Virus record (IMG/VR): IMGVR_UViG_3300027733_000032
Length of the DNA: 64,000 nucleotides
Origin: a virus
Strand: one strand, 5' to 3'
The position numbers and the translations under genes are program-made. Positions 27,683 to 63,901 of the stretch are shown one piece after another. Each line of letters begins with the position of its first letter. The stretch's first letter is position 1. Under the pieces are notes generated by a model. It did not search any database and was not told the DNA's origin. It worked only from the letters and a program-made list of their open reading frames with translations.

Positions 27683-29143
27683 ATGTCGCAAAATACCACG
27701 TCAGATATCAATTTCAAGGCACTTAATGGGCAGTTCAATATTGATGAGGCCCAAGGAATCGTCGAATGTTTTGTTGCTGCTATTGGCAACAAGGACAGCG
27801 TAGGCGACGTAATTGTCTCGGGGGCGTTTAATGAAAGTCTCAAGCGTCGCAAGCCTCGCGTAGTTTGGGGACACAGTTGGAATGACCCCATCGGTAAGGT
27901 CATCGAGATTTACGAAGTACCCGCAAACGACCCGCGACTGCCAGCAAAGATGAAGCAGGCCGGAGTTGGTGGAGTTTATGCACGCGTTCAGTTTAATCTC
28001 GCAACTGAAAAAGGAAGAGAAGCATTCTCTAGCGTTGCATTCTTTGGTCCAGAACAAGAATGGTCAATTGGCTACAAGACACTCAATGCCACTTTCGACC
28101 CAAATGTACAGGCTAACATTTTAAGAGAAGTCGAACTTTATGAAGTAAGTCCTGTTCTCCATGGTGCCAATCAGTTGACCGCCACCATCTCCGTAAAGAG
28201 CGAAGAGGGTGAAAAGTGTGGCGTTCCAATGGGTATGCCAAATTCCCCTCATATGTACGGTGGTACCCCTGCCCCCTCTGCAATACCACGGATTGTCTCC
28301 GTTGATGCCAACAGGCTTTCTCCAATACGAGTCATTAGTGGAGTTGCCCAGCAGGCCCGACCCGACCATAGCAATAATTCACGTGAAGATATTTTTGGTG
28401 AAGGAGAGGCGAGAACACTTTCGGATGAAGCACGGAATATGCTTGCCATGGAATTAATGACGCGTTCCCGTGCGAATCTTGATGTTGTTTATGCAACAGA
28501 AAATTCCGTAGTATTCAACCGCGAGGTTGGGCAAGGAAACCACATTACATACCGTCTTTCGTATTACAGAGACCCGGATAGTGGCGAATATATGTTTGGC
28601 AAGCCCGAAAAAATGGGCAGTCATAGCGATGACAGTAGAATTGCCTCGCCAACCGTAGTCCCATCACAGATGCCTTCGATGCCAATGATGGTCAAACCAC
28701 AGGCCGTCAATCCGTACTCGATGAGCGGAATGCCTTCTGCTGTTCCCCAGATGGGTAATTATGGAATGGAAAAGTCACTTGATTTTGGCGCAGATACAGC
28801 GGCAGATTTTGTTCTTTCAGGAATTCAAAACGGCTCTATTTCTTCGTCTACCGGAAATGAAAAAATTGACGCAGTTATTGACATTCTCAAGGGAATGACC
28901 GGGAAGTCGGATAATCAGCAGGTATTTACCATTGCGTGTGAACCACATGAGGCTTTCTATATTAAGTCAGCAATCGACCCGGTTCTCGAATACCACCGCC
29001 TTGATGTAGAAATCGACGAATACGGTATTCATGTCGTCAATGGGCTATCCACTGAATCAATTAGCGCATTAACCAAGGCCGCAGAATCTATCGAAACTAT
29101 CACCACTAAGGCTGGTGGTTCAAAAAAATACAAGCGCCCTTAG
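27683..29143 (+). CDS. HK97-type prohead maturation protease with long C-terminal extension
   Basis: AGGAG SD before ATG 27683; DSVGDVIVSGAF, WGHSWNDPIGK, EWSIGY and LYEVSPVLHGAN. Confidence 0.93.
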   Translation: MSQNTTSDINFKALNGQFNIDEAQGIVECFVAAIGNKDSVGDVIVSGAFNESLKRRKPRVVWGHSWNDPIGKVIEIYEVPANDPRLPAKMKQAGVGGVYARVQFNLATEKGREAFSSVAFFGPEQEWSIGYKTLNATFDPNVQANILREVELYEVSPVLHGANQLTATISVKSEEGEKCGVPMGMPNSPHMYGGTPAPSAIPRIVSVDANRLSPIRVISGVAQQARPDHSNNSREDIFGEGEARTLSDEARNMLAMELMTRSRANLDVVYATENSVVFNREVGQGNHITYRLSYYRDPDSGEYMFGKPEKMGSHSDDSRIASPTVVPSQMPSMPMMVKPQAVNPYSMSGMPSAVPQMGNYGMEKSLDFGADTAADFVLSGIQNGSISSSTGNEKIDAVIDILKGMTGKSDNQQVFTIACEPHEAFYIKSAIDPVLEYHRLDVEIDEYGIHVVNGLSTESISALTKAAESIETITTKAGGSKKYKRP

Positions 29144-29190
29144 TTTTCGGCCTTGGGTTAAGTCTCGAATCTAAGGGCCTAGGGCCAAAA
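29122..29190 (+). other. predicted -1 programmed ribosomal frameshift signal
   Basis: A AAA AAA heptamer in the protease frame (29122-29128), 7-nt spacer, stem GCCCTTAG (29136-29143) / CTAAGGGC (29171-29178), with pseudoknot potential to 29179-29190. Confidence 0.8.
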
Positions 29191-32100
29191 ATTGGAACAC
29201 GACTTAGTGGTGGGCTTCGTGCAGCACCGCCAGGAATGTCATTTGTTGACATAACAGGAACCGTTGACGCAGATACAGACGGAATAGTGTTTGAAGGCAA
29301 GCCCGGTCTTGAACGACCCATAATCCCTAGATTCCTTGTACCTAAGAATCTTGCTCGCAAAATTTCTTCACTCACCGAAGGCGACGCCCTAGAAATAGAA
29401 AAGCAACGACGCAGTGGTGACGGCAATATTTCCTTTGACGAAACAAAACTTCGCTCAATTATTGAAAAAATTGGCGGAGACGTCAACTCCTTGAAGCCCG
29501 TGGACGATACAGCCGAAACCGGCATGCGTAGTGCGAACGCCTCAGACGGCCCGGATTTCCAAGAACCACCGATTGCCGATGTACCAGAACAGTTTGATGG
29601 TTTCTGGACCCCAGACGAAGAACAATTGCGCGACCTAGATAAGCGTTCTGGTCGCAGGACACCTCCTCCTCCTCCTGCCAATATCGGGCAGAAGTATGTA
29701 ATTTCACGGGATGATGATGGCGTTTATTTTGCGGAGAATATTTCAGCAGAAGATGTTTGGTCGCTTCGTTCCGGTGCATCAAAAGCGCCGAAGCGTCCTT
29801 TCTTTGCCCCACGTGGAGGCGGGAATAAGCCAGATAACGGCGAAGGTTATTACTTCTCTACAAACGGAAAACGCTATTGGGGCAAGTATGGCGCAGCGGG
29901 AGCGTTGGTCCGTCGTAAAAATTCAGACGGAGAATACGAATATTTTCTAGCGAGACGCGCTGATGGTATGTCGGTCGGTGGTGGCAAGTGGTCATTCCCT
30001 GGTGGGGCACACAAAGATAAAGAAAATTCAAAACTTCCAGGTGCTACTGCGATTGAAGAATTTGGCGAAGAGGTTGGTGGAGATATCTCTACACTCAAAC
30101 CAATTCACACCTACACAGACCAGGTTGCCCCTGACTGGAAATACGACACTTACGTGTTTGAGGTTGGGCCGGATGAACTGAATGACTTACGGTCGATGGA
30201 CGGCGAAAGCACTGATACGGGTTGGTTTACGGCATCTGACATTATACAAATGGCAGAAGACGACAAACTTCTAGAGTCATTCAAACGTTCAGCAAAAGAA
30301 GTATTTGCTCTTTCTGGAGATGAAGTCAAGGGCAATAAAACTACAAGAAAAATTAAAAAAACATTGAAGAAAATTAGTGGCGAAAAAGTTACTTCTTGGC
30401 AAGAAAAGATAAAAAAATACGAACCAATTGAACCAGAAGATTATTTTGATATCAATAATGAAATGCAGTCTGATTTTGGTATTTCTATTGGCCAAGTGAT
30501 GCAGGATGAATACGATGAAGGCGCATCTATTAAGGAGATTGCGGAAAACTGGGGAATTTCAGCCCATGAAGTTGAAAAATTGCTTAGTGAAAATAAAAAG
30601 GGCGGAATGTCATCAACTTCCGTCGGACAAATCATGCAGGATGAATACGACGAGGGTGCGTCAATAAAAGAAATTGCAGAAAATTGGGATATAACGACTC
30701 AAGAAGTTGAAGATTTTATGAGTCGACCACCTTCTGTCGGGATGTCATCTGCCAAAACGAATAGAGATTCACGAGGGCGCGACGCAACGCCAGCAAAAAA
30801 GAAAAAATTAGACTCCGTTATAGATTTTGTTATAGACAAAATTAGTCCAGTCACAGTAATCCAAGCATATATAGATTTTTCTGATAGACGACAGGAAAAA
30901 AAGAATCCAAGCCTTACGGCTGAACGTCTTGCAAGAGAAGAAAAAATGAAGTCAGGAGTCGATAAAGCAGGCAAATCAGGCATATCTATTGCTACAAAAA
31001 TGGCATTACCAGAGTACAAGACGCTTATGGAGAAAGTTTCCCTAAATGGGGAGACTGTTCTGGCAAGTACATCAGCAAGAACTGCCGAAGTTCAAAAACT
31101 TATCGACAATTTGGCATCAAAAGTTGATGGTGATTTGGATGGAATGGATTTCTCCAAAGGAAACTTCTCTGGCATTGATTTTAAAAATTACTCATTACGT
31201 AACGCAAGTTTCTTTGGCTCCACTCTTGATAAATCTAATTTTTCTGGATGCATTATTGACAGCGCCACTTTTGAAGATGCTTCTTTAATTGATGCAAATT
31301 TAAGCAAGATAAGTCAAGCATGGCGCATCGATTTCTCGGGAGCGAATCTAACAAATGCAGATTTAACCAAACTCAATATGCACTCCGCTCTATTGAACGA
31401 AACAAACCTTGAAGGGGCAAAACTTGATGGAGTAAATCTAATCATGGCTGACATTAGGGATATGGATTTCTCTAACGCTCGAAGCATGAGGGGTGTCTTG
31501 CTAGAAGAAGTACAGGGAGAAGGTGCAAACTTTGGTGGTCTCGATATGACCAACTCATCCTTTGTCTCCGCAAACTTGACAAACACTAATTTTAGTAATG
31601 CAAATTTAACTCGTTCAGATTTAAGAAACGCAAAACTGGATAAGGCTGATTTTAGTGGCGCAAACATGGAGGGTATTGAACTAGAAAAACCAGGTTTATC
31701 TCCATCCAGCATGAAAGAAACAAAATTTGACAATATGCCGACCAAGGGCGAAGAGGGCACCCCTTCGGGTATGAGTTCCCTTACGCGTCCCTATCGTGAT
31801 ACCAGTGATGAAGAGTTAAAGGCCCTGTACGAAAAATATTTACGTTACCTAGGCGGCCCTGGGGACAAGGGTGACAGCGATTTTACATACATGCGACGGT
31901 CAAAAGAATATGACAAAATTAAGAAAGAAATTGCTCGGCGTGAGAAAGATGGCAAAAAACCAAGCAAGGGAATGAGTTCTGAAACAAAGTTGCCAGGAAA
32001 TAAAGAAATGCCAGGATTACCAGATGATGAATTAACATCAAAACTTGATGACAATGTAAATTCGCTCAATGAACTGGAAACTCTTCTTGACGATGGAGAA

Positions 32101-35100
32101 ATTGACCTCGCCGAGTACAGAAAGCGTCAAATCCCATTACGTAAAGAAGCGGCAGAATTGGGCGCAGAGAAAAAACGTCGGTCTGGTGAAAAGCCAAAAA
32201 CTGGTGAAACTGGCACTCTAAAAAGAGAAAAAGTCATAGACCGTGGCGATGGGATGATTAAGCGCGACGAACGCGGAAATCCATCTGAATGGAATGGGCA
32301 GAAATTCTTAGACGGAGAAGCAGGAAAACGCAGACAGGCGATTCTTGAACTTGGCTTCACCGAGCAAGAAGCAGACACTCTTCTTGGCCAGCGACCAAGT
32401 CCGCAAAAATCCGGCATGGGAAGTCGCAGCAGCGCCAAGACTAAGCCTACATTTTCACTCACTCCATTGAACTTGTTCATCAAGCGCGAGACAACGCGAA
32501 CAAAAGGACCGGTCCCAGAGTTGAGCGGATGGTCAGACAGAGAATTGGCCGATTCTCTCTCAATGTACGATATTCGCGCACCACGTGCGTGGGACGAAGA
32601 ACGTGGTTCATTCATTCCTTCATGGTTCCCTTCGAAAGACTCTCTAGTTCGTGAATTTGATAGTCGTGGTTACAACGTATTTCTTGGTACGTCTGGTTCA
32701 AGACAATACAACGATTTAATGTTCTCTGTTCTGGCGAAAGATAATGCCATCCCGCAAGAAATGCGCAGGAGAATATGGAAGCCGTCAGGATTGCTTACGA
32801 AGGCAGTACGTGATGGTGAAGAAGAAACGGGTCAAGTTTTCCCATTGAAGTCAAGGATGAAGAATTGGGAGTTTGCGGCGCAAGCGGCAGATATGACTGA
32901 TGTAGAAGTTCGCTCACTAGATGTCGAGTTCGACAATGAACGAGCAAATAAACTCGCCGACGTACGGTCGGGAATAATCTCCAAGGAGCAGTTTAATAAA
33001 TGGTACGAGGGAGAACTCACGCCGCTTAGACGTGCGCTTTCTGCAGAACTTACACGTCGTTCGTTAAGGAAGGCCGTAGATGGAAAACAGACAATAGAAT
33101 CTGTTTTTGGTACCGGACTAACACCAAGAGAATATGCATTCCTATCAAAGGACCCATTGTTATTTACTCGGGCAGCGGGAATGATGTCGCGCAATGGTGG
33201 TTCAACTATCGACAAGATGGTTAAAAATGGAGAAATTACTCAAGAAGACCTTGAGTTCATACAGCAATACCATGACCTATCTGACAGACTAAGCGTTGAT
33301 TTGTATGACGAGTTAACGAATTTATTTGGCTCAAATCCGGATGACGTTGATTGGGATTCGCTTGATATCGATACTAAGTCAAAGTCGCGAGATATTCACG
33401 CTAAGTGGATGAGAAAATATTCTGCATCATTATCTCAATTGGGCGACGGTCAAAAAAGAAGTCGCAATGAACTTGCGAATATGGGCTTTGACGATGGGGA
33501 AATCGACGACATAATGACCGGAAGCATGTCTTCTGGTGGCATGTCTTCCAAGCGTAAATCAAACAAAAAAATTACGTCAAAATGGTCTGAAGAAGACAGG
33601 CGTGCATTTACTGAACAAAACCTTCGTTCCAAGAAAGTACCGAAGAAGAAAAAGAAAGGTCCAGTAGCCAACGAATGGACCGAACGTCGCGCTGGAAGAG
33701 AAATTAAGTCAACGACGCGAGCAAGTGATTCTACTTATGGCGATTCTGCAAAAACAGCATCGTATTACGAGTCTCTCGCAAATCAATATTTTTCTGGAAT
33801 TGCTGAATATGTTGGCGAAGACACTCGAATAGTAAACAGTAATTACAACCCAAATATACCTACCATGGATGAGCCGTTTGCATCAATCCGAACGTCGACA
33901 GTTGGCTCACTCAAGGATGGGGACTTCCTTCCTGACGGATTTGATGCTCCAAGCATGTTTTCTACTCCTACGAATCCACGTTACAAAGTTGTCTATGTGA
34001 GCAAAGACAAAGATGGGCAGATTGTATTCGGAGCACGCGATTTACAGACTGGTGAATTGCTCGTAAAGAAAATGGGCGTAAATGAAATTCTTCCAAATGT
34101 CATGCGTCAATCTACCAATAAGCGATTTGGTGGAATGTCCAGTTCTAGGAAAGTTGGAGATGTAAAACTTCACGCCAAGTTGGCCGACCAATTTAAATTC
34201 GAACAATTTGATGAAATTGAGAAAGACCTGAATGGTTTTATTGACGAAATAAATTCAATCAATGAACAACTTAATATTATTTGGAAAAATGGCCAGCGCC
34301 GCACAGACGCTGGACTGCCAGATTCTGACTTTGACGAAAAACGCTATGGCGAACTAGAAGATATGCGTTCGAGCCTAGAAGATACAGTCGGAGAATATGT
34401 AAAATTCGCCGAATTTGTTGCTCAAGAAAATATTATGCGTCGCCGCAATAAGGCTGCAGTAAAACTTGCAAAAGAAAAAGTTCAAAATGCACTAAAAAAA
34501 CAAGAGTCTCCAAGCGGCAATCCATTTGAGATGAACGATATTGATACTCGTAGGCTTTTTGAACTTGGAGTGACAGAAGCAGACGTTGCTGACATATTGG
34601 ATTCATTCGACATTGATGACCGAGAGATGGAAAGAGTATTTACTGCTGGTCGACCACCATTTACTGGGACAAAATTTGCTAAGCAAATTTCCAGCATTAT
34701 AGATAGTCGCTCTTCACTAGATGGTCCTGAATTTGAAGAATTTGACCCAGAAGACGAAGACGAACAAAGAGAGATTTCAAAACTTGCAAGAAGAATGATT
34801 AATTCTGCGGCAGACGATTCTGCTCGTCGTTCCAAAATCACCGACCGCTCAAAGACGATGATTGATGTTGGCGTATCCTCTTCGTCTTCTGGCGGCATGT
34901 CAAGCAAGACACCAATGGGTAAAGGGCTTGGCACCAGTAAGGTCCTCTACCCAACGCGACCAAATAAATTTATCGCAAAAGATGTTTCGTTTGTATTTTA
35001 CGATGCCAATCGCGAAGAGTTGTCTGTTGGCTACAAAGATAAAAAGAAATATGTTTTTGGTGGCATTACTCCAGAAATGGTCAACGACATTGAGAATGGC

Positions 35101-41387: not shown

Positions 41388-41416
41388 CAAAGCAGTAAGT
41401 GGGATTGGAGCCCGGA

Positions 41417-55582: not shown

Positions 55583-55595
55583 TCATATATAACGA

Positions 55596-56255
55596 GTGGA
55601 GAATTATATGGGTGAATACAATATCAAAGCACCACAGGATGCAATAATCCCAGATATATTTCCTCAGGAACGCATTACTGGAGACATTCTCAAGGGTCAT
55701 GGTCCGCGTCGTGGCAATCTAGAACGCCTCCTTCGATACTGGCGTCCAATCATGCGTAAACCAGGTGGCTTTAGGCGGTGCAAGGTCATCCTCGCAGACC
55801 ATCCTGAATTATTCCCACTAAACAACATTTGCGCTTGGCTCCACCACGAAACTACGGGATTGTGGCCAAACGAAGGATGCCACCATCCCACCATGAAAAA
55901 CTGCCGTCGCAAACTAAAAAAAGGCGTAAATGGTTCACTTTTCTCAGATTCACAATTCAATAATCGTCTTCGTAAATTAAATGGTCCTGATAAGAAATCA
56001 GCAGACGATGTATTTTTTTGGGACGAATGGAATACAAAAGGTTTACAGCCTTACGAGAATGACGAGAATCCAGTAGTCACTACAGAGGATATAAAACATG
56101 CTATTTTAGTATTAGTTGACTTCTCTACAATGGAGCCAGACTTCTGTGACTACCTTCGCGACGATTCTCAATGGGATTACGAAGGCGAAATGGACGATGG
56201 TGCAATGTTTAAGTCCGCTGTTCCACCAAGCGAGGATTGTGGATGCGATAAATGA
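55596..56255 (+). CDS. head-associated protein with LRYW..PG.F.RC...CA..H..TG.WP domain
   Basis: Motif resembles a domain fused to actinophage capsid maturation proteases (recalled, not searched). Confidence 0.55.
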   Translation: MENYMGEYNIKAPQDAIIPDIFPQERITGDILKGHGPRRGNLERLLRYWRPIMRKPGGFRRCKVILADHPELFPLNNICAWLHHETTGLWPNEGCHHPTMKNCRRKLKKGVNGSLFSDSQFNNRLRKLNGPDKKSADDVFFWDEWNTKGLQPYENDENPVVTTEDIKHAILVLVDFSTMEPDFCDYLRDDSQWDYEGEMDDGAMFKSAVPPSEDCGCDK

Positions 56256-58285
56256 TTATTTACGATTTGCAGAAACCGAGTAAATGTTGCCCAAATTCCG
56301 TGGTTACTGTTCGTCGTCATATCGTCGAAACGAACCGCCAGCCACAGGGCGGAAGCATTCTTTTTTCTCAAAAGGCCGTAAATCCAGAAATAGTCACATA
56401 CAAAGCACTTTCTCAGTCCCACGGAACTAGATTTAAGTACGAAGTTAAAAGAGTAGGGCTGGTTGGCTCTAGTGGGAAATTGGGACAAACACTACAGGCT
56501 GCTGGTTCCTATGTCCTTCCTGGAGATTCGTCTCCATTGCGTAGCCCGGTTAGGTCCGGTCTATTCACGGCAATAACTCCCGGAGTACCTAACTTCAGTA
56601 GGCCACGCGGCCCCAAGAGGGACAGAACAGCAAGATGCCCTGAAGGATATCAATACGGTGGTCGTTTTACTAATAACGAACTATCCACATGTGGAGCCCA
56701 ACTATTTGACATTCCAGGACCACTGGGGGTCGTTATTGGCGTAATTGCCCGAGCACTTCGTCGTGGCGAACGAGCCGTAGCCGATGCCATGCAAGGGACC
56801 CCATTGACCCCTGGGGATTATGGTGGCAGCCTCATAGATTCACGTCGACCACAAATACCGCGCGTCGCAGACGCTAATCCAGCCTCACGGATGGCCGAAA
56901 TTACCCGCCTTGCAAAAGAGATGGGCGCTCCCAAAATCAATGCTTCACGCATGGTGCGTCGTGATGGATTTGTTCTTGAACCAGTAGTAACACCAAGAGT
57001 CCTTCGCGCAATTCCAGACAACAGAGACATGGAGGGTGCCGCATATCTTATGCGAATCAACGACCTTCCAAGCCTGGGTCAAGATGAATTAGGACTTCTT
57101 TCCAATACTGGAGTAACTAATCTAACCTATGTTCTTCCAGGTGGCTCAACAATCACTCTCGAAAAGGTACGCTCATTAACCGTTGGCGAGCGCCGCAAAC
57201 TTGGTAGAACAGTCAATTCAGCAGCAGCGATTGATAATTCAGAAAATCCAACCGCCCGTCTCATGAAGGTAGCCCAAGAAACTGGCGATGGTATTAAGTA
57301 TTCCGAAAATTTTGTAAGCGTGAATAGACCCCATGAAATTGTTAGGGGTAGAAATGGGAAAAAGACGGAACGGTGGGTTCGTGAACTTCTTGACGGCATC
57401 CCAGTGGCAGAAACAGCGCCATCACGTGAGACTTCGTCTGTTGCCGCAATAGCCGACAAGATTAAAGACGTAGATGAGGCTGCAGCCTTTATTGAGCAGG
57501 GTGGAAGCCTGGCAAGAATTTCGCCGGATATTCTTCAGCAGGCCCTCACAAAAAACAATTTATTCCGCTTGCGAGATATGGGCAATGGAGTCACTCGGCT
57601 TGATGGCCCTAGAGGCAAAACTTATTCAATTTATCAATCTCGCAATGAGTTTGACCATATCAATAGCACTTATGCTTCCGATATTCAACAACATCTGGGC
57701 CTAGAGTCGCCAGATGTGTATCCGATTGGTTCGGGTAGTCGCCGTAATTATCTTATGGATTCGACACTAAATACCTACCCTGGAATAACTCCACGTCGAG
57801 ACATTCCAATGAATCAAGTTAGTCCAAAAAAAATGGCATCACTATTTGTCTCTGACTATTTGAGTGCCAATAGAAACAGAAATCCGCTGTCAATAGAAGT
57901 GATGCAATTAGCGGACGAAAATGTTCCAGTAGTCAATTCCTTTGACTCAGAATTAACAGACTTGGCTAAAATAAAGATTGCAGACCGTAATAAGGGCGCA
58001 ATTGAAGACATGCGCTCATTGTCTGCCAATGGCGTTTTCGGCAAATATTATGCTGAACTTAAAAAATCACAGCAAAATCAGTACATTACTGAAATTAGGG
58101 AATTAATTGCACGGGCTCGCCTATTTAATTTTGTAAACTTTAAAGAGAGACTTCAGCGTGATGGCGCGCTTTCCGATGCGGAACTTGCACATGTTGACAT
58201 TATTAATACAATCAGCAAGCAAAGGCTGAATATTCTCGAAAATCAACAGGAAAGACTTGTTGAAATACTCGGAGGTAACAAGTGA
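56252..58285 (+). CDS. 677-aa head-operon protein with RCPxG..FT tag and degenerate HipA-like kinase C-terminal domain
   Basis: ATGA overlap; YASDIQQHLGLESPDV ... SDYLSANRNRNPLSI parallels the kinase in protein A. Confidence 0.6.
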   Translation: MIIYDLQKPSKCCPNSVVTVRRHIVETNRQPQGGSILFSQKAVNPEIVTYKALSQSHGTRFKYEVKRVGLVGSSGKLGQTLQAAGSYVLPGDSSPLRSPVRSGLFTAITPGVPNFSRPRGPKRDRTARCPEGYQYGGRFTNNELSTCGAQLFDIPGPLGVVIGVIARALRRGERAVADAMQGTPLTPGDYGGSLIDSRRPQIPRVADANPASRMAEITRLAKEMGAPKINASRMVRRDGFVLEPVVTPRVLRAIPDNRDMEGAAYLMRINDLPSLGQDELGLLSNTGVTNLTYVLPGGSTITLEKVRSLTVGERRKLGRTVNSAAAIDNSENPTARLMKVAQETGDGIKYSENFVSVNRPHEIVRGRNGKKTERWVRELLDGIPVAETAPSRETSSVAAIADKIKDVDEAAAFIEQGGSLARISPDILQQALTKNNLFRLRDMGNGVTRLDGPRGKTYSIYQSRNEFDHINSTYASDIQQHLGLESPDVYPIGSGSRRNYLMDSTLNTYPGITPRRDIPMNQVSPKKMASLFVSDYLSANRNRNPLSIEVMQLADENVPVVNSFDSELTDLAKIKIADRNKGAIEDMRSLSANGVFGKYYAELKKSQQNQYITEIRELIARARLFNFVNFKERLQRDGALSDAELAHVDIINTISKQRLNILENQQERLVEILGGNK

Positions 58286-61200
58286 AAAATTACGCCATCC
58301 TTAGAGACGCGGTCGAGGAAAAAGTATTTGGCCTCGTCATTGAAAAAGATGGTGGTTTTCGTTTCTACGGAGCCGATGACAGAGCAAAAGAGTGGGCTAA
58401 TTGGGCTAACTCGACATCACTCAAGTCCCTACAAGAAGCACTTCCGGTTGGCGTCATTGCCACCGACAAGCGTCCATTAGTGAATGATACTGAATTATTT
58501 ATTGAATCACTTATTGAATCTGCATCAAATGCTGGCGAAATAAAGAAGCCGACTTTTTCATACAAGAGTTCATATGTTACTAGAGCAAACTCATCAACCC
58601 CGTCAGCCCGAGATTTTCAACTGCGTTCGTTCAATATCGACGCCAGACAGAATGCCATCAACTTCAAGGTTTACGCATTTAAGAATGACCAGAAGTCATC
58701 TTCGCTAATGGCGAAAATTCGTTCGGCTGGTCTTGGCTTCAATGAAAAAACCGGTGAATTCAGAAGCAATGACATAACAATTTCTCATTCCTCGCTACAG
58801 CAGAATATCGAAACTACATACACCAAGTCGCTACAGCGCAATATTGGTTTCAATGTCATGGCAGCCAAGAATGTTTATGCTAAATCACTCAGTCCTTTCT
58901 ATACGCACCCCAAAGTCATTGAACTCAAAAGACTCGGTGGTGCAATTGGTCCAAAGTTGGGTCGTGGACTACGTTCCGCTCCGATGGGAATGGTATTCGT
59001 CGACGTTACCGGAGCGATTGATGCTGACAAGGATGGCATTGTCTTTGAGGGTAAGCCTGGATTAGAACGACCAATTATTCCTAAATTCATTCTTCCAGAA
59101 GGTGTCGGTCGTCGTGTGGCTTCACTGATTGGTGGAGCAGCAGAACAGAATGAAAAGAATCGCCGCTCGGGCGCGAATGGTGGTGGAGTAATTGACGAGG
59201 CAAAACTTCGCAGTATTCTCGGAACTGACGCCTCATCCCTCAATAAATTAAATGCTCCTTCTCCGTTGACTGATAGCGATAACGCAAATGCCACTGGCAT
59301 GCGTTCTATTGCTGGGAACATTAGAAGTCGACGTGATGCGATTATCGCTAAACGTACTGGCTCGATAGACCTGTCTAGGGTTGGGCGTGGTGAAAAGACT
59401 CAGTTGAATACCGGCGATTCGCGCGCTGTTGAAAAAATGACATGGGATGATTCGGCAAAGGAATTAATTGTCACGTTTGCTGGTGGTCGCACATATACGT
59501 ACAACAACGTCGACGACAGTTGGGTTGATGAACTAGAGAAAAATCCTGATGCACTCGGTCGCATCATGAATGACATCAAGAAGGCTGGATACGATTTCAC
59601 TTCAGGTGGAACCCACGCTCCAGACAAAACGCTTGCCAGCAGAATGCAGGGTCGCCGTGAGGCGGCAGGAATGCGCTCGGCTAGAACCGGCAACAATAAC
59701 CCGCTCAAGCAATCCGAAGTAGATGAACTTTTCTTCGACAATGCTGCATGGTCAAATGATGCGCTTCAGTTCGGTATAGATACGGACTCTCGTGGGAATT
59801 ATGATATTGAGGGAAATAATCCATTGTCAGATGTTTTGTATCGAGAATTCCCCGGCAGATTCAATGTAGATGAAGGTGGCAGAGTCGGAGTACCACGCCA
59901 AGACCCTGAAGTTGTTTTTGATTCCTCAAACATGAGCGATGAAGAACTTGCTCTTTTCACTGACATTCTCGCAGAAAATGACCCTGCAGTCTTGAAAGAT
60001 TTCCCTACTAGTTCAGGTACTGGCATGTCCTCTCGCAAGGGACCAGACGCGACTACTAAAAAGACGAATTTGTCCGAAACGAAGTGGAAAGGCAAGCGTC
60101 TTTCAGATGATTTGCTAAGTAGGGAAGATTTAAGTGGAGAAGACCTTTCTGGTGCCAATCTCGAAGGTGTGAATTTAAGTAATAAAAACTTCACTGGAGC
60201 GAATTTAAGCGAAGCCAATTTATATGAAGCCAATTTGCAAGGCGCCCGCCTCGTAGATGCTGACCTTTATGCAGCCGATTTAATTAAAGCAAATCTCGAA
60301 GATGCAAATCTCGAAGGCGCACGTCTAGAGTATGCCGATTTGCGTGAAGCAAATTTATTAGATGCCAATTTGAATGGAGTAAATTTAAACGATGCTCAAC
60401 TTGGTTTTGCAAATCTAGACAAGGTTGACCTTGGGGGCGCCAAACTCAGTGGCGCTGACCTAACTGGGGCATCATTATGGAAAGCAAATCTTGAAAATGT
60501 AGACCTGAGTAATGCTTATTTAGGCAATATTAAATATATGACAAATGCCAAACTACAGGGGGCAAATCTCAGAGATGCAGACCTCAGAGGTACGGACTTG
60601 TCCATGGCAGACATGACAGATGCAGACCTCAGGAATGTCGATTTTACTGGCGCAAACCTAGATGGTGCAATTTTTTCTGGAGCAAATCTAAATGGCACAA
60701 AACTAGATAAGGGCTGGGAACAAAGCGTTGGCATGCGCTCATCAAGGAAGCCAAGCAATAATGACTTTGACACGAATAGATTTCTTCCCTCATTGGCTGA
60801 CAGAGAAAACTACGTTGCTAGTGACGAATACGAAGCAGACCTAGAGGATTGGCTCACTCGTTTTCCAAGAAAGACAGAAGCGGATTTCCGACGCAGCAAG
60901 ACGTTCATGGAAAACGTAAGCATGTTTAATCCAGGCCCGGATGTCTCTGAATTCTCAAGAGAAGCAGACATTTACGACGGATGGTCTCCTGAGGAAATTG
61001 ATTCAGGCCTACCCGACACTCTCTGGCGAGGTATGAGTTCACGTACTAGTGGCCTCACTCCAGAAGGCAAACGCGATATTAATGACGCAACAAAGAAGTT
61101 GTCAGATTTCTCGCGCAATTCAGCGTTTGGTGACGTGTATCCAGGTGCAGAAAAATTTGACAGCAATAAGAGACTGCATCAATCCATTAGTGACATGTTC

Positions 61201-63543
61201 GAGGATGCAGACATGCCTTCGCAACGTGTTCAAGATGTTCTCAATGCCATACAGGCACTTAAAGAAGTCTTTGGTGAGGATTCCGACGTTGGAATTAGCG
61301 ACCGCGTTGAGTACGCATTAGACTATATCGCCCCAACATTTGACTCACGCGTTGCATTGAGCGGTGGCGTTCGACGTAGTAGCGGTAGTGTTGCCCCCAA
61401 TTCAGGCATGGGTTCACGCACTAGTGGCGCTGTACGACCCGCTGGATTTACTCAGCGTTCACGCACGGCAATGCTGGAAAGAACAGCAATCGGCTCACCA
61501 ACAGGAATGCGTTCTGCCCGGAAGAGTGCGCTCTACAAGGCGCATGAGATAAGTCCAGGGCAACAGAGGGCTTCTGCTAATGATGGGCAATTATGGGAAA
61601 CCCTATCGCCCGCAGATAGGCAGTTATTTGCCGAAAGGGCACGTGCGCGTGAAAGCGAACTTATCGACATGTTGTTCGACAAGTTTGATATTCCAGTCAA
61701 TGGAACAGATAGACGTCTTCTTGACGAGACGTTGCCAGCAAAAGAACGTGCAAAAATAATGAAACAAACAGGGGGAGGAAATCCGTGGGTTGTCGCAAAC
61801 CAAGATGCCTATGGTCATTTCCTTCTTGCAGAAGAAGGGCTTAAGCCTTTATTTTCTGGCGAGTATGGCGTTCAGAAAAAAGCAAAAGAACTAGCCAAGG
61901 AAGCGCGTGAGCATCTTGCCAAGGGCGAAATAAAAGAACATAAAGAAAAAGTCACAAAACTAACCACCCTTCTGCGTCTATCCGATGACCTGGAGACGCT
62001 TAGTGCAGCGCGCATACAGGGAGATGCCGATGATTCACTCATTGACAAAAATGACTCATACGACTTCGCCATTGACCATTTACATCCAGTTTCCAAGGCA
62101 AGAATTATGGACATTGGCGCAACGACGACGACTAAGGGCAAGAACTCTGCCCCAGTGGAGAAAATAAATCCCTATTCAAAGTCTGGCTCGAATAGGCCTT
62201 TTGAGTTCAATTTTTCTAAAGCACAAATGGCTGCAACTTCAACCGCAATCAATGTACCTGGACGTCCATTAAGCGAAAAAGACGACATTCTTCGTTCTGC
62301 TGGAGTTCCTGGAGATGACGTCAAGGTAAAGAAAGCAAGCAGAGTTGGTGGATTACTTGATTTCTTACGTACAAAAACACAAGACCTAAGTAAGGCTGAC
62401 GAAAAAGCCAAAGAACGCCGAATCAAAAAGATGCGCCAACAAGGCATAAACATTGGTTCAGTACAGGTTGGCGAGCGAAAGACTGACAGGCCGTCACTCC
62501 TTGACAAGCGAGCAATGAAGATAAGCCGTATTGCTCGAAAGAAACTACTCAATGCGAAGGCTCGCAAGATGGACGCTCTTGATAAGAGTGCGGCAGGCAA
62601 CAACGACTCCGTGCCATTAATTGCTTCTGCTGAGTCTGGTGCAAGAATGCTGACACCAGGTGGCATCCTTGCTCTTTCTAAAGACCTCAAAGTAGGCGAA
62701 AGAGAATGGAAAAAGGCCTACAACAGTAAGGGGCGAAATGACAGCGGACACTCCCTCGCATTTGCATGGGAAGCGGCGGGCATGAATGGAACTCCAAACC
62801 CAATTAATGAAGAAGAATATAGCGCACTCCTTGCTGCCGGTTGGATGCCAATCAAACGTGGAACTGGTGCTCGTGGTTATGCAATTTCGTACATGGACCA
62901 TCCAAAGCGATTTCTCCCACCCGCTGGCGAAGCATATGGTCCTGGTGAATACTGGTCAACTGGTCCAAGTACTGCTTGGATTGGAGGGTACTATCCAGAC
63001 CCAGGCGAACTTGGTGACGGACCAGGAGGAATTGCTGGCCTACTACCCCCGACCGCCAAAATTATGAAATCTAGCGAACTTAATACCATTCGTGAACAGC
63101 ATCGTGCGTTTTCTTCACCCATTCTTGGAAACTTCTCTGGTTATCCAGAGGGAGAATTAGAAAAAACCCCACAACAAGATTTTGTTGACCAATTAGTTAG
63201 TGACGTTTTTGGAAAAATTCCACGAGATTCAGAAGTTTGGGATTCGGCCATTGGAGGAATGACATTGCAGTTAATTAGTGCACTTGAATCGAATCCATCG
63301 CCAGAAGAATATAAGAAATTGCGAAATGCGCTATTCCGCCTAACCACCCTGGTTAATCAACACGAAAACGTTTATGGTCCAATATTTGGTGCTGACGCCC
63401 TAGATGTTGGAGGTGATGTAATGTTGCTCATGAACCGTGCAGCGGTTTCGGTATTTGCTGACCCACTTCCAGTTGATGAGATTCTTTCACTCTCTCAAGG
63501 ACGAGGTCTTTCGCCGGGATACGTAGTACCAGGACGTAAGTAA
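58282..63543 (+). CDS. giant modular protein D (DxDxDG tag, KTSC, pentapeptide repeats, C-terminal ART/PARP-like domain)
   Basis: GGAGG SD and GTGA overlap; seven GMxS motifs; IKRG...YGPGEYWS...LLPPTAKI. Confidence 0.8.
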   Translation: MKNYAILRDAVEEKVFGLVIEKDGGFRFYGADDRAKEWANWANSTSLKSLQEALPVGVIATDKRPLVNDTELFIESLIESASNAGEIKKPTFSYKSSYVTRANSSTPSARDFQLRSFNIDARQNAINFKVYAFKNDQKSSSLMAKIRSAGLGFNEKTGEFRSNDITISHSSLQQNIETTYTKSLQRNIGFNVMAAKNVYAKSLSPFYTHPKVIELKRLGGAIGPKLGRGLRSAPMGMVFVDVTGAIDADKDGIVFEGKPGLERPIIPKFILPEGVGRRVASLIGGAAEQNEKNRRSGANGGGVIDEAKLRSILGTDASSLNKLNAPSPLTDSDNANATGMRSIAGNIRSRRDAIIAKRTGSIDLSRVGRGEKTQLNTGDSRAVEKMTWDDSAKELIVTFAGGRTYTYNNVDDSWVDELEKNPDALGRIMNDIKKAGYDFTSGGTHAPDKTLASRMQGRREAAGMRSARTGNNNPLKQSEVDELFFDNAAWSNDALQFGIDTDSRGNYDIEGNNPLSDVLYREFPGRFNVDEGGRVGVPRQDPEVVFDSSNMSDEELALFTDILAENDPAVLKDFPTSSGTGMSSRKGPDATTKKTNLSETKWKGKRLSDDLLSREDLSGEDLSGANLEGVNLSNKNFTGANLSEANLYEANLQGARLVDADLYAADLIKANLEDANLEGARLEYADLREANLLDANLNGVNLNDAQLGFANLDKVDLGGAKLSGADLTGASLWKANLENVDLSNAYLGNIKYMTNAKLQGANLRDADLRGTDLSMADMTDADLRNVDFTGANLDGAIFSGANLNGTKLDKGWEQSVGMRSSRKPSNNDFDTNRFLPSLADRENYVASDEYEADLEDWLTRFPRKTEADFRRSKTFMENVSMFNPGPDVSEFSREADIYDGWSPEEIDSGLPDTLWRGMSSRTSGLTPEGKRDINDATKKLSDFSRNSAFGDVYPGAEKFDSNKRLHQSISDMFEDADMPSQRVQDVLNAIQALKEVFGEDSDVGISDRVEYALDYIAPTFDSRVALSGGVRRSSGSVAPNSGMGSRTSGAVRPAGFTQRSRTAMLERTAIGSPTGMRSARKSALYKAHEISPGQQRASANDGQLWETLSPADRQLFAERARARESELIDMLFDKFDIPVNGTDRRLLDETLPAKERAKIMKQTGGGNPWVVANQDAYGHFLLAEEGLKPLFSGEYGVQKKAKELAKEAREHLAKGEIKEHKEKVTKLTTLLRLSDDLETLSAARIQGDADDSLIDKNDSYDFAIDHLHPVSKARIMDIGATTTTKGKNSAPVEKINPYSKSGSNRPFEFNFSKAQMAATSTAINVPGRPLSEKDDILRSAGVPGDDVKVKKASRVGGLLDFLRTKTQDLSKADEKAKERRIKKMRQQGINIGSVQVGERKTDRPSLLDKRAMKISRIARKKLLNAKARKMDALDKSAAGNNDSVPLIASAESGARMLTPGGILALSKDLKVGEREWKKAYNSKGRNDSGHSLAFAWEAAGMNGTPNPINEEEYSALLAAGWMPIKRGTGARGYAISYMDHPKRFLPPAGEAYGPGEYWSTGPSTAWIGGYYPDPGELGDGPGGIAGLLPPTAKIMKSSELNTIREQHRAFSSPILGNFSGYPEGELEKTPQQDFVDQLVSDVFGKIPRDSEVWDSAIGGMTLQLISALESNPSPEEYKKLRNALFRLTTLVNQHENVYGPIFGADALDVGGDVMLLMNRAAVSVFADPLPVDEILSLSQGRGLSPGYVVPGRK
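60120..60710 (+). repeat. pentapeptide repeat domain in protein D
   Basis: More than 30 A[ND]L-x-x type repeats, bounded by GMSS and GMRS. Confidence 0.92.
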
Positions 63544-63562
63544 CTAGGACAAGGAAAATAAA

Positions 63563-63901
63563 ATGGCACAAAAAGTAGACCCACGAGAAGAATTTCATCT
63601 AGCACATAACCTCATAGGTTTGCTTATGACATTCCCTCCATTTTCAATTGACCAAGATATGAGAAAGCAGTTTCAGAATGAATCAGTTCTAGCAATTGAA
63701 AGTCTTGTTCAATCTAGTGCTAGTGATTCCGAATGGAATTCAGTACATGACACGCTAATGGAAAAGTACGCTACCGAACTAGAGGAAGCGTCATTATGGA
63801 ATGCTAGAAGTAGCGGAGACACGGAAGAGGCGAAAAAGTTGGCGTTGGCCTTGGAGGGTAAGACCCCAGAAGAAATCAAAACTTATTTGTTCTTGTCCTG
63901 A
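63563..63901 (+). CDS. small acidic protein after protein D, candidate immunity protein
   Basis: AAGGA SD; begins 20 nt after the D stop. Confidence 0.5.
   Translation: MAQKVDPREEFHLAHNLIGLLMTFPPFSIDQDMRKQFQNESVLAIESLVQSSASDSEWNSVHDTLMEKYATELEEASLWNARSSGDTEEAKKLALALEGKTPEEIKTYLFLS

What the first reader, a model, noticed from the sequence alone, without database searches (positions are those of the whole stretch)
29128..63901. A ~35-kb head-operon insert of multi-effector proteins with polymorphic-toxin-like effector/immunity pairs
Seen: between the protease and the (not yet reached) capsid gene lie proteins of 3430, 598, 3435, 1070, 219, 677 and 1753 aa, mostly translationally coupled. B, C and D each end in an enzyme-like domain and are followed by a 94-128 aa ORF. 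Known: MuF polymorphic toxins in phage head modules carry C-terminal toxins with downstream immunity genes. Inference: this is an expanded, apparently MuF-independent version in which many effectors are packaged and injected before phage transcription, for host takeover, anti-defence or competition.
Basis: partly seen in the sequence, partly recalled or inferred. Interest (0 to 1): 0.85.

Follow-up and report, generated by a model that had tools for sequence, protein, structure and literature searches.

The report
Giant punctuated phage capsid-cargo polyproteins
An uncultured phage, probably of actinobacteria, puts about 45 kb between its capsid-protease and capsid genes into giant chains of swappable effector modules joined by a G-M-x-S linker; these are probably loaded into the capsid, cut apart and injected with the DNA, but neither loading nor cutting has been measured.

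Summary
The ORFs of 3430, 598, 3435, 1070, 219, 677 and 1753 aa are real. The array continues past the window with a fifth giant ORF (3273 aa: ArdC, MPTase-PolyVal, zeta-like kinase, pentapeptide). It ends at an HK97-type capsid gene, 45.3 kb after the protease.

These are polyvalent proteins (Iyer et al. 2017) in an extreme form.
- A G-M-[S/R/A]-S linker occurs 42 times against about 2.4 expected. It brackets every recognised domain and is held at protein level.
- Relatives use other dialects at homologous positions: GMRS, S[T/L]RS and R[L/F]SSG.
- Ten relatives keep the same gene order, with 23-47 kb between protease and capsid. The ends of the giants are conserved and the middle modules are shuffled.
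- The prohead protease is joined to giant A by a -1 frameshift site here. It is fused in frame in seven of ten relatives.
- B ends in a (p)ppApp-synthetase-like toxin domain. It is followed by a 94-aa ORF that co-occurs with the domain in 4 of 4 lineages.
- D ends in a weakly supported ADP-ribosyltransferase-like fold. C's end stays unknown.

Packaging, cleavage and injection are inferred. The general kind is published; this architecture was not found in the literature. Earlier unchecked notes of this scan describe similar arrays in other genomes.

The parts
25528..27558 (+). Portal protein (676 aa) with a roughly 290-aa C-terminal extension conserved in the clade
   Evidence: PF04860 E 1e-45. 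It is 62-68% identical over its full length in four relatives. No MuF domain was detected.
27659..29143 (+). Prohead serine protease (S78 domain at aa 31-183) plus a roughly 300-aa C-terminal part
   Evidence: PF04586 E 4.5e-12; phrog_80 E 3e-27. The catalytic domain is 70-78% identical in ten relatives.
29121..29180 (+). Candidate -1 programmed frameshift signal. The slippery heptamer A_AAA_AAA is at 29121-29127. A stem-loop at 29133-29180 covers the protease stop codon (29141-29143).
   Evidence: Sequence read. The fold has dG -22.9 kcal/mol, z -2.3. The -1 frame is open from 29110 and encodes a peptide homologous to the in-frame protease-giant linker of relative G001. Relative G005 has the same heptamer, a stop and a -1 continuation.
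29236..39528 (+). Giant protein A (3430 aa), with 17 GMxS sites. Domains: junction module aa 1-97, NUDIX 221-340, HTH about 420-465, pentapeptide repeat 620-820. Coding probably starts upstream through the frameshift.
   Evidence: The termini are conserved and the middle is shuffled in relatives.
39591..41387 (+). A2 (598 aa), a conserved core gene of unknown function with no GMxS sites
   Evidence: The C-terminal 310 aa are 63-77% identical in four relatives. Its nearest families are viral only.
41399..51706 (+). Giant protein B (3435 aa), with 7 GMxS sites. The N-terminal 1750 aa are conserved. It also has KTSC-like and weak ParB-like stretches.
51128..51634 (+). C-terminal toxin-like domain of B (aa 3244-3412): RelA/SpoT-type alarmone ((p)ppApp/(p)ppGpp) synthetase
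   Evidence: PDB 8vx3 (SaEAS) E 1e-12 to 4e-14. XopAD C-terminal region NF041399 E 4e-27. phrog_2859 E 1e-46. An Asp aligned with the SaEAS catalytic D121 is present and invariant in four lineages (PMC12691689).
51706..51990 (+). Bs (94 aa), a candidate immunity protein for the B toxin domain
   Evidence: TAATG overlap with B and a GGGAGG Shine-Dalgarno-like box. A homologue lies directly downstream of the synthetase domain in L051, L060 and L081/L094 (G004), and is absent where the domain is absent.
51987..55199 (+). Protein C (1070 aa), with 2 GMxS sites and no assignable domain
   Evidence: Orthologues sit in the same slot in G001, G002 and G005.
55196..55582 (+). Cs (128 aa, GTGA overlap with C), a positionally conserved small ORF of unknown function
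   Evidence: Homologues follow C-type genes in G001 and G005.
55596..56255 (+). E219 (219 aa), a conserved core gene of unknown function
   Evidence: 55-67% identical in four relatives.
56252..58285 (+). F677 (677 aa), a clade-wide core gene. The N-terminal 200 aa are disordered; aa 200-677 have an atypical protein-kinase-like fold.
   Evidence: Found in 34 distinct relatives. AlphaFold model with pLDDT 80-90 over aa 200-677. Foldseek hits: CtkA 2e-5, actin-fragmin kinase 7e-5, HipA 5e-4, PI3K, CotH. No homologue in cultured phages.
58282..63543 (+). Giant protein D (1753 aa), with 7 GMxS sites. Layout: N-terminal head of about 218 aa, junction module aa 219-342, KTSC-like 380-422, pentapeptide repeat 595-860, conserved C-terminal domain.
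62392..63540 (+). C-terminal domain of D (aa 1371-1753) with an ADP-ribosyltransferase-like fold (weak to moderate support)
   Evidence: Model with pLDDT 76, pTM 0.75. VIA-align: PE-like toxin Spx Z 6.8, cholix toxin 6.4, diphtheria toxin 6.4, exotoxin A 6.1, ParT 5.2, and many PARPs. Foldseek gave nothing below E 0.1.
63563..63901 (+). Ds (112 aa), a small ORF conserved after D-type genes. It could be an antidote or a chaperone.
   Evidence: 23 homologues at the same position in relatives.
63922..64000 (+). Start of giant protein G (3273 aa; it continues as L001:6300-16121:-). It has 9 GMxS sites. Domains: DUF3721, junction module about aa 216-333, zeta-like kinase 753-880, pentapeptide repeat about 1030-1200, and a full ArdC (ArdC-N plus MPTase-PolyVal) at 1446-1740. 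A 106-aa ORF and the HK97 capsid gene (L001:4317-5627:-) follow.

Best explanation
The region is a capsid-cargo array. Five giant polyvalent proteins (A, B, C, D, G; 12,961 aa) are interleaved with conserved non-cargo genes: A2, E219, the F677 gene (kinase-like fold) and several small ORFs.

Proposed mechanism, with the status of each step:
1. Shown from sequence: each giant is a string of autonomous modules, 47 segments in all. They include ArdC, Qnr-like pentapeptide repeats, NUDIX, a zeta-like kinase, an alarmone synthetase and an ART-like domain. The modules are joined by a G-M-[S/R/A]-S linker held at protein level.
2. Strongly indicated by comparison: giant A is made as a C-terminal extension of the prohead protease. 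Here and in relative G005 this uses a -1 frameshift at A_AAA_AAA. In seven of ten relatives it is a direct in-frame fusion. D and G carry their own N-terminal heads of about 220 aa, followed by the same conserved junction module (GLR-x-AP-x-GM-x-F-[V/I]-D-[V/I]-TG..DAD-x-DG..ERPIIPRF).
3. Inferred: these heads carry the chains into the procapsid, much as Gag-Pol carries enzymes into a retroviral particle.
4. Inferred: the prohead protease cuts at the linkers and releases dozens of separate effectors.
5. Inferred: the effectors leave with the DNA and act before any phage gene is transcribed. Expected roles are anti-restriction (ArdC, DNA-mimic-like pentapeptide repeats), nucleotide or alarmone manipulation, and protein modification.
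6. Inferred: Bs neutralises the (p)ppApp-synthetase-like end of B in the producing cell.
For: Anatomy:
- ORFs and domains.
- The linker occurs 42 times against about 2.4 expected. In 500 shuffles per protein, no count exceeded 5 for any protein.
- Its density is 3.24 per 1000 aa in the giants and 0.38 per 1000 aa in the other 54 ORFs.
- Of the 42 sites, 39 use a distinct 12-nt codon string, with all four Gly and all six Ser codons in use.
- No site falls inside a Pfam or PDB domain match, except possibly one at the end of D's pentapeptide repeat. ArdC (G 1446-1740) is bracketed exactly by the sites at 1427 and 1790.

Comparison with relatives:
- 436 IMG/VR relatives of the capsid were found.
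- The same gene order is kept, with 22.7-47 kb between protease and capsid, in ten relatives.
- The termini are conserved and the middle modules move between slots. For example, ArdC sits in our G but in the A-type protein of G004.
- Ends of homology blocks lie near linker sites: 23 of 128 against 10.9 +/- 3.7 expected, p 0.0035.
- The linker differs by lineage (GMRS, S[T/L]RS, R[L/F]SSG) and occupies homologous positions.
- MPTase/ArdC is absent from the arrays of G002 (complete genome) and G005, while the S78 protease is always present.

Link to the protease. The junction module is found in only 44 cluster representatives among 1.84 billion proteins. It always sits at fixed offsets (about 1-45, 224-242 or 475-495) in proteins that mostly run to 1500-4980 aa.

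Toxin and immunity.

Precedents: polyvalent proteins, including some fused to assemblin-like peptidases (PMC5512222), and processing of ejection proteins by the prohead protease in SPN3US (PMC10052503).
Against: - No virion proteome, cleavage assay or frameshift assay exists, and the phage is uncultured.
- The substrate specificity of this S78 protease is unknown.
- The only capsid site that resembles the linker (NGANM-[A/S/P]-[S/A], about aa 116-124) is invariant in all five lineages. It does not follow the linker dialects, and the protease catalytic domain is about 70-78% identical across those dialects. A simple picture of protease and site co-evolving is therefore not shown.
- B and C lack the junction module, so how they would be loaded is unexplained.
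- hhalign found no similarity between the heads of D and G and the protease C-terminal part.
- The stem-loop statistics are modest: z -2.3 here and about -1 in G005.
- Most modules have no recognisable function, so calling them 'effectors' extrapolates from the few that do.
Confidence: 0.55

Rival explanations
1. The giants are packaged cargo, but the GMxS, STRS and RLSSG linkers are not protease sites. They could be serine modification sites, for example for the clade-conserved F677 protein with its kinase-like fold. They could also be purely structural spacers that keep modules independent in an uncut beads-on-a-string protein, as N4 vRNAP is packaged unprocessed.
For: The last Ser is the one position shared by all the dialects, and it is often flanked by Arg or Lys. 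A gene with a protein-kinase-like fold sits in the array in every relative examined. Iyer et al. note that N4 vRNAP and ArdC are transferred uncut (PMC5512222). The capsid site does not co-vary with the dialects.
Against: The position of the basic residue relative to Ser differs between dialects (-1, -3 or +1), which does not suit a single kinase. Strict lineage-wide 4-5-residue motifs are more than a spacer needs. Chains of more than 3400 aa made of unrelated enzymes would have to pass through the portal and tail channel unfolded and then refold as one piece.
Confidence: 0.2
2. The linkers are cut, but by another protease: the MPTase-PolyVal zincin domain carried in G, or a host protease. In this reading the cut happens after injection rather than inside the procapsid.
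For: G carries a high-scoring MPTase-PolyVal domain (E 8e-35). Iyer et al. proposed exactly this role for it (PMC5512222).
Against: The arrays of G002 (a complete 137-kb genome) and G005 show no ArdC/MPTase match, yet they keep dense linkers (12 GMxS; about 45-64 S[T/L]RS). In ArdC the MPTase domain is part of a protein that is transferred uncut.
Confidence: 0.12
3. The proteins are not virion cargo. They would be late-expressed cytoplasmic or released proteins that merely sit in the late operon, such as polymorphic toxins for competition after lysis, or large structural or internal-scaffold proteins.
For: No direct evidence of packaging exists. B and C lack the junction module. B ends like MuF-type, T6SS or T3SS polymorphic toxins and has an immunity-like ORF.
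Against: In-frame fusion of a giant to the prohead protease in seven of ten relatives places at least the A-type chain inside the procapsid. ArdC and Qnr-like DNA mimics are useful only at DNA entry. The array's position between protease and capsid is conserved in every relative examined.
Confidence: 0.1

Closest known systems
Polyvalent proteins of phages and conjugative elements (Iyer, Burroughs, Anand, de Souza, Aravind 2017, PMC5512222)
   Same: Large multidomain polypeptides combine unrelated activities and are encoded next to portal-terminase head genes. The hallmark domains ArdC-N and MPTase-PolyVal are present, along with kinase, NUDIX and ART-like domains. Some published examples are fused to assemblin-like prohead peptidases. 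Delivery with the DNA is predicted there too.
   Different: Here there is an array of five giants interleaved with conserved core genes, spanning 45 kb (23-47 kb across the clade). The modules are separated by a strict, lineage-specific short linker, with about 42 sites and up to 18 segments per protein; the paper reports 2-15 domains per protein. The protease sits at the N-terminus, joined by a -1 frameshift or by fusion, whereas the paper describes the peptidase at the C-terminus. A dedicated junction module is restricted to this clade.
MuF polymorphic toxins of temperate phages, including the (p)ppApp synthetase Apk2 (cited in PMC12691689)
   Same: A head-module protein has a variable C-terminal toxin domain (B: alarmone synthetase, matching the C-terminal part of PHROG 7625) and a small downstream ORF that travels with the toxin domain.
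   Different: No MuF domain is present. The toxin is the last of eight linker-delimited segments of a 3435-aa chain. The other C-termini (D, probably C) are conserved, not polymorphic.
Internal and ejection proteins processed by the prohead protease: T4 IPI-III and Alt; phiKZ and SPN3US (PMC10052503, PMC7411985)
   Same: Cargo proteins are loaded into the procapsid, trimmed by the head protease at a short motif and ejected into the host.
   Different: Those are separate gene products with an N-terminal targeting or pro-peptide and a T4 gp21-type protease (motif ending in Glu). Here the protease is HK97-type S78, the motif is G-M-x-S, and dozens of modules are strung into polyproteins.
Retroviral Gag-Pol (by analogy only)
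   Same: A -1 frameshift at a slippery heptamer followed by an RNA structure extends an assembly protein into an enzyme polyprotein. That polyprotein would be co-assembled and then cut by the particle's own protease.
   Different: There is no homology. The phage version is inferred and not demonstrated. In most relatives the fusion is constitutive rather than produced by frameshifting.

Membership tests
Polyvalent proteins (Iyer et al. 2017) | One polypeptide combines several domains with unrelated biochemical activities | tested here: met
   A: NUDIX, HTH and pentapeptide repeat. G: zeta-like kinase, pentapeptide repeat, ArdC-N and MPTase. B: alarmone synthetase plus other modules. D: pentapeptide repeat and an ART-like domain.
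Polyvalent proteins (Iyer et al. 2017) | Hallmark domains (ArdC-N, MPTase-PolyVal) | tested here: met
   G: PF18818 E 8e-35, PF08401 E 4.5e-23, PDB 6sna ArdC E 3e-48. These were not found in A, B, C or D.
Polyvalent proteins (Iyer et al. 2017) | Encoded among the late or packaging genes of a portal-terminase phage | tested here: met
   Terminase 23931-25235 (-), portal, S78 protease and HK97 capsid flank the array.
Polyvalent proteins (Iyer et al. 2017) | Transferred into the host together with the DNA | not testable with these tools
   This needs virion proteomics or infection assays.
MuF polymorphic toxins | N-terminal MuF (SPP1 gp7) domain | tested here: not met
   No Phage_Mu_F hit at E <= 0.01 in the portal, the protease or any array protein. 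phrog_7625 matches only B aa 3233-3411.
MuF polymorphic toxins | Variable C-terminal toxin domain with a cognate downstream immunity gene | tested here: inconclusive
   B: the domain is present in 4 lineages and absent from G001 and G005, and the Bs-like ORF co-occurs with it in 4 of 4. Neither binding nor neutralisation was tested.
RelA/SpoT-type small alarmone synthetase toxins (Tas1/Apk/SaEAS-like) | Sequence similarity to the synthetase domain, with the catalytic Asp conserved | tested here: met
   8vx3 E 4e-14 over 169 aa. The residue aligned with the SaEAS D121A position is Asp (B aa 3303) and is invariant in 4 lineages (PMC12691689). The reaction product, (p)ppApp or (p)ppGpp, is unknown.
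ADP-ribosyltransferase toxins | ART fold with an H-Y-E or R-S-E catalytic signature | tested here: inconclusive
   The structural hits are dominated by ARTs, but Z is only 5-6.8 and Foldseek E is above 0.1. Invariant R, E-Y-W and D residues exist but were not mapped onto a catalytic signature. Pfam gave no hit.
Programmed -1 ribosomal frameshift | An X_XXY_YYZ heptamer in the 0 frame, a downstream structure after a 5-9 nt spacer, and an open, coding -1 frame | tested here: met
   A_AAA_AAA at 29121-29127. A stem-loop starts at 29133, dG -22.9, z -2.3. The -1 peptide is homologous to the in-frame linker of G001. G005 has the same arrangement.
Programmed -1 ribosomal frameshift | Frameshifted product is actually made | not testable with these tools
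   This needs a reporter assay or proteomics.
Prohead-protease-processed capsid cargo (T4 IP or phiKZ/SPN3US type) | The linker motif equals the protease's cleavage motif, as also used in capsid or scaffold maturation | tested here: inconclusive
   The capsid has NGANM-[A/S/P]-[S/A] just before the HK97 domain, and the junctions have G-M-x-F. Both resemble GMxS but are invariant across the linker dialects. No cleavage data exist.

The most novel reading that the evidence does not exclude
A widespread clade of uncultured phages, probably of actinobacteria, uses a Gag-Pol-like strategy. The capsid-maturation protease is extended, by a -1 frameshift or by fusion, into a polyprotein of several thousand residues, and further giants carry their own heads and the same junction module. 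In total 23-47 kb of swappable effector modules are loaded into the procapsid. They are cut at a lineage-specific 'punctuation code' (GM[RS]S, S[T/L]RS, R[L/F]SSG) into dozens of enzymes and injected with the DNA. The code changes as a whole between close relatives.
Probability: 0.4. Interest if true: 0.85.

Novelty: new variant of a known kind. Interest (0 to 1): 0.68.

Why it matters
If the model holds, these phages spend a third to a half of their coding capacity on pre-made proteins delivered at the moment of DNA entry. That would be the largest injected arsenal known for a phage of ordinary size. It would also be a natural, modular system for loading arbitrary proteins into an HK97-type capsid and releasing them.

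The roughly 47 linker-delimited segments are mostly of unknown function, so they form a ready-parsed catalogue of candidate anti-defence and host-takeover proteins. The wholesale change of linker dialect between close relatives offers a direct way to study how protease specificity and substrates co-evolve. The frameshift-versus-fusion variants would be a phage parallel to Gag-Pol.

The finding also extends the polymorphic-toxin idea to a carrier without MuF, through the (p)ppApp synthetase and its candidate immunity gene.

Tried and rejected
- blastn of the head genes against cultured phages: no match.
- F677 against cultured phages by tblastn: no match.
- ESM Atlas look-ups for F677 and A2: only unnamed viral clusters.
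- Pfam, PHROGs, NCBIfam and PDB sequence searches for C, A2, E219 and the small ORFs: nothing usable.
- Large-database searches for Bs and for the C-terminus of C: only unannotated close relatives. Immunity status could therefore not be tested through outside gene contexts.
- Search for short free-standing homologues of A's modules: only contig-truncated fragments and generic pentapeptide-repeat proteins.
- hhalign among the D and G heads, the protease C-terminal part, A2, E219, the conserved C-termini, and Cs against Ds: no pair above 2% probability. A common loading domain beyond the junction module was not found, and Cs and Ds are not detectably paralogous.
- The idea that the linkers are DNA-level repeats or recombination sequences was rejected, because 39 of the 42 sites use a distinct 12-mer.
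- The idea that the protease's own internal SGMPSA (aa 357) is a conserved self-cleavage site was rejected, because it is not conserved in relatives.
- The per-locus motif survey of the 80 capsid-flank loci was too noisy to classify dialects beyond four.
- One search was a mis-specified alignment and was not used.
- Literature searches found no description of this clade or architecture.

Full report
**1. Observation**

The + strand from 25.5 kb onward carries a head operon. It starts with a portal (25528-27558, PF04860 E 1e-45) and an S78 prohead protease (27659-29143, PF04586 E 4.5e-12; phrog_80 E 3e-27).

| Gene | Window coordinates | Length (aa) |
|---|---|---|
| A | 29236-39528 | 3430 |
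| A2 | 39591-41387 | 598 |
| B | 41399-51706 | 3435 |
| C | 51987-55199 | 1070 |
| E219 | 55596-56255 | 219 |
| F677 | 56252-58285 | 677 |
| D | 58282-63543 | 1753 |

Three small ORFs also exist: Bs (51706-51990, 94 aa), Cs (55196-55582, 128 aa) and Ds (63563-63901, 112 aa). Junctions are TAATG, GTGA or ATGA overlaps, or gaps of 11-62 nt.

The window is the minus strand of a single 90,311-bp contig. Reading on past the window shows a fifth giant ORF, G (3273 aa, L001:6300-16121:-). A 106-aa ORF follows, and only then the HK97-fold capsid gene (L001:4317-5627:-, PF05065 E 1e-43). The interval from protease to capsid is therefore 45.3 kb, half of the contig.

The contig has no terminal repeat. 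Relatives of 86-91 kb are rated 57% complete, and complete relatives with terminal repeats are 137-160 kb. The true share of the genome is therefore probably nearer a third.

**2. What the proteins contain**

| Protein | Domain hits |
|---|---|
| A | NUDIX (aa 221-340), HTH (about 420-465), Qnr/MfpA-like pentapeptide-repeat domain (620-820) |
| D | KTSC-like stretch, long pentapeptide-repeat domain (595-860) |
| G | DUF3721, zeta-toxin/AAA_33-like P-loop kinase (753-880), pentapeptide repeats, complete ArdC (ArdC-N plus MPTase-PolyVal; PDB 6sna E 3e-48, aa 1446-1740) |
| B | C-terminal RelA/SpoT-type alarmone synthetase (see below) |

B's synthetase domain matches PDB 8vx3 (SaEAS) at E 1e-12 to 4e-14, the XopAD C-terminal region NF041399 at E 4e-27, and phrog_2859 at E 1e-46. 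It also matches the C-terminal, non-MuF part of the 'head morphogenesis' phrog_7625. The residue aligned with the catalytic D121 of SaEAS, which is mutated to Ala in the crystal construct, is Asp. It is invariant in four lineages (PMC12691689).

ArdC-N and MPTase-PolyVal are hallmark domains of the 'polyvalent proteins' of Iyer et al. (PMC5512222), which are predicted to be injected with phage or plasmid DNA. This is the correct published frame for the finding.

About 90% of the 12,961 aa has no family assignment.

**3. The linker**

G-M-x-S occurs 17, 7, 2, 7 and 9 times in A, B, C, D and G. That is 42 sites, where composition predicts about 2.4. In 500 shuffles per protein, no count exceeded 5 for any protein.

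- The density is 3.24 per 1000 aa in the giants and 0.38 per 1000 aa in the other 54 ORFs of the contig.
- The sites lie in Ser/Gly/Pro/Arg-rich stretches. The third position is S, R or A in 36 of 42 sites.
- Of the 42 sites, 39 use a different 12-nt string, with all Gly and Ser codons in use. The motif is therefore selected as a peptide and is not a DNA repeat.
- No site interrupts a recognised domain, except possibly one at the end of D's pentapeptide repeat. ArdC is bracketed by the sites at G 1427 and 1790, the synthetase sits in the last segment of B, and the NUDIX-HTH pair sits in A 98-458.

**4. Relatives**

The capsid has 436 relatives (69-84% identity) in IMG/VR, on contigs of up to 160 kb. 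The closest cultured phages are actinobacteriophages at 46-48% capsid identity and 43% portal identity: Brevibacterium phage Cantare and Gordonia phages DalanDe, ChisanaKitsune and GMA6. An actinobacterial host is therefore a reasonable guess. In the two cultured phages whose head regions were read, Cantare and ChisanaKitsune, there is only a small cargo-like region, and it lies between portal and protease. Across the two it includes an RNA ligase, a VIP2-like ART and ORFs of 970-1040 aa.

In ten uncultured relatives, the distance from protease to capsid is 22.7-47 kb. In the four relatives whose arrays were read in full (G001, G002, G004, G005), the gene order is the same as here: portal, protease(-A), A2, B, C, small ORF, E219, F677, D, small ORF, G, capsid.

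- Portal, protease, the A2 C-terminus, E219, F677 and capsid are conserved (39-84% identity).
- The giants keep their N- and C-terminal ends, but their middle modules are lost, gained or moved between slots. ArdC lies in our G but in the A-type protein of G004. The NUDIX segment sits 1200 aa further along in G005. G 1787-2211 and the ArdC block are in the opposite order in G001.
- Ends of homology blocks lie within 12 aa of a linker site more often than expected: 23 of 128 against 10.9 +/- 3.7, p 0.0035.

**5. Linker dialects**

| Lineage | Linker | Count |
|---|---|---|
| G001 | G-M-R-S(-R) | 44 |
| G002 | GMRS | 12 |
| G005 (protease and capsid among the closest to ours) | S-[T/L]-R-S | TRS 45 against 5 expected |
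| G004 | R-[L/F]-S-S-G | 23-24 |

In pairwise alignments the dialects occupy homologous positions. Examples are AAGMRSAR against SVSLRSSR, GGMSSKRK against PSTRSKRG, and, upstream of the synthetase domain, GMRS against RLSSG. The shared core is hydrophobic/Thr, then R/S, then S.

A genome-wide switch at dozens of sites implies that something acting in trans reads the motif. MPTase/ArdC is missing from the arrays of G002 (a complete genome) and G005, while the S78 protease is universal. The prohead protease is therefore the best candidate reader.

Two points argue for caution. The capsid's only similar site (NGANM-[A/S/P]-[S/A], just before the HK97 domain) is invariant in all five lineages. 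The protease catalytic domain is also about 70-78% identical across the dialects. Co-evolution of protease and sites is therefore not demonstrated.

**6. Link to the protease**

The protease frame ends ...GGSKKYKRP*. TC-A_AAA_AAA-TAC gives a perfect X_XXY_YYZ heptamer at 29121-29127. The -1 frame is open from 29110. A stem-loop (29133-29180, dG -22.9 kcal/mol, z -2.3) starts 5 nt downstream and covers the stop codon.

I tested it independently.
- The -1 peptide upstream of A's annotated ATG (..GPKIGTRLSGGLRAAPPGMSFVDITG..) is homologous to the in-frame linker of G001 (..GKIGPKLGGGLRAAPAGMAFVDITG..).
- G005 has the same heptamer, a stop and a -1 continuation.
- In G001, G002, G004, G006, G007, G008 and G009 the protease lies in one open frame of 1667-4203 aa.

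**7. Junction module**

The first 70-100 aa of A recur inside D (aa 219-342) and G (about 216-333). All three copies are preceded by the same GLR-x-AP-x-GM-x-F junction and contain an invariant DAD-x-DG..ERPIIPRF core.

An exhaustive profile search of 1.84 billion proteins found the module in only 44 cluster representatives. It always sits at one of three offsets: about 1-45, 224-242 or 475-495. The proteins mostly run to 1500-4980 aa. Those offsets place it right after a D/G-type head, right after a fused protease, or at the start of a frameshift-type ORF.

The module is therefore a clade-specific adaptor between an N-terminal 'head' and the cargo. Its function is unknown. The DxDxDG loop suggests metal binding. 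hhalign found no similarity among the heads themselves. B and C lack the module.

**8. Toxin and immunity claim**

*B and Bs.* The synthetase domain is present at the C-terminus of B-type ORFs in four lineages (ours, L051, L060, G004) and absent from G001 and G005. A Bs homologue of 79-94 aa follows it directly in all four and was found nowhere else. This is the signature of a polymorphic toxin with its immunity gene. Binding could not be tested.

*D and Ds.* An AlphaFold model of D aa 1371-1753 (pLDDT 76, pTM 0.75) gave no Foldseek hit below E 0.1. An exhaustive structural alignment, however, is dominated by ADP-ribosyltransferases: PE-like toxin Spx Z 6.8, cholix toxin 6.4, diphtheria toxin 6.4, exotoxin A 6.1, ParT 5.2, MbcT 4.7 and many PARPs. 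Z values of this size are not decisive. Both this domain and Ds are conserved throughout the clade, so they are not polymorphic. Ds could be an antidote or a chaperone.

*C and Cs.* These remain unassigned.

**9. Core genes inside the array**

F677 is found in 34 distinct relatives. In some lineages it lies only about 1.6 kb upstream of the capsid gene. Its residues 200-677 fold with pLDDT 80-90 into an atypical protein-kinase-like domain: CtkA 2e-5, actin-fragmin kinase 7e-5, HipA 5e-4, PI3K and CotH. This raises a rival reading in which the conserved Ser of the linker is a modification site. A2 and E219 are conserved and unexplained.

**10. Interpretation**

The best-supported model is a capsid-cargo system. 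The chains would be loaded through the protease fusion, or through a head plus the junction module. They would be cut at the linker by the prohead protease and ejected with the DNA. Bs would protect the producing cell. My confidence in the whole chain is about 0.55.

| Step | Approximate confidence |
|---|---|
| The proteins are polyvalent effector chains | 0.9 |
| They are packaged into the capsid | 0.7 |
| The linkers are cleaved | 0.5 |
| The cleavage is by the S78 protease | 0.4 |

Rival readings are that the linkers are uncut or are modification sites, that cleavage is by MPTase or a host protease, and that the proteins are not virion cargo.

**11. Novelty**

The kind is published: polyvalent proteins, some with assemblin-like peptidases, and processing of ejection proteins by the prohead protease in phiKZ and SPN3US (PMC5512222, PMC10052503). 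Five literature searches found no description of the following features:
- a multi-gene array of 23-47 kb between protease and capsid;
- a strict, lineage-specific linker;
- an N-terminal protease joined by frameshift or fusion;
- the junction module.

I rate it a new variant of a known kind.

Earlier notes of this scan (unchecked AI notes) report similar punctuated, protease-headed polyproteins in other genomes. Notes e1-5782185 and e1-5765511 describe what may be members of this same clade.

Noticed in passing
window 8657-10759 (-): A 700-aa ORF pairs an N-terminal PAPS-reductase-like stretch with intein-splicing and LAGLIDADG domains. It appears to be an intein-interrupted gene in the replication/nucleotide-metabolism module.
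   Followed up: no
window 56252-58285 (+): F677, a core gene of the whole clade with no homologue in cultured phages, has an atypical protein-kinase-like fold (CtkA/HipA/PI3K-like) behind a 200-aa disordered N-terminus.
   Followed up: partly
L001:3508-3990 (-), L001:871-1278 (-), L001:1275-3500 (-): Directly after the capsid gene come a ferritin-like protein (PF00210 E 3e-14), a 741-aa protein with DUF6321, and a staphylococcal-nuclease-like protein (PF00565 E 1e-12). These are unusual neighbours for a head gene.
   Followed up: no
window 26680-27558 (+), portal aa 385-676: The portal carries a roughly 290-aa C-terminal extension that starts with a Pro/Gly/Met-rich low-complexity run (repeated GMPP-like units). 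The extension is conserved over its full length in relatives and has no cultured-phage or MuF match.
   Followed up: partly
window 1-2001 (-), continuing beyond the window start: The ORF at the left edge of the window is part of a 1428-aa minus-strand ORF with no Pfam match. It contains two GMxS motifs.
   Followed up: no
relatives G001 and G002 (L090, L091): Lineages in which the protease is fused in frame still keep the GGT-GGT-TCA-AAA-AAA heptamer at nucleotide level. A -1 slip there would end translation early, so frameshifting might produce the short protease form in those phages.
   Followed up: partly
window 12567-14498, 21763-23407, 17474-18277 (-): The minus-strand module encodes a class II ribonucleotide reductase, a Cas4-like PD-(D/E)XK nuclease with a Rad52-like annealing protein, and a ParB-N protein. 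The terminase (23931-25235) is divergent from the portal.
   Followed up: no
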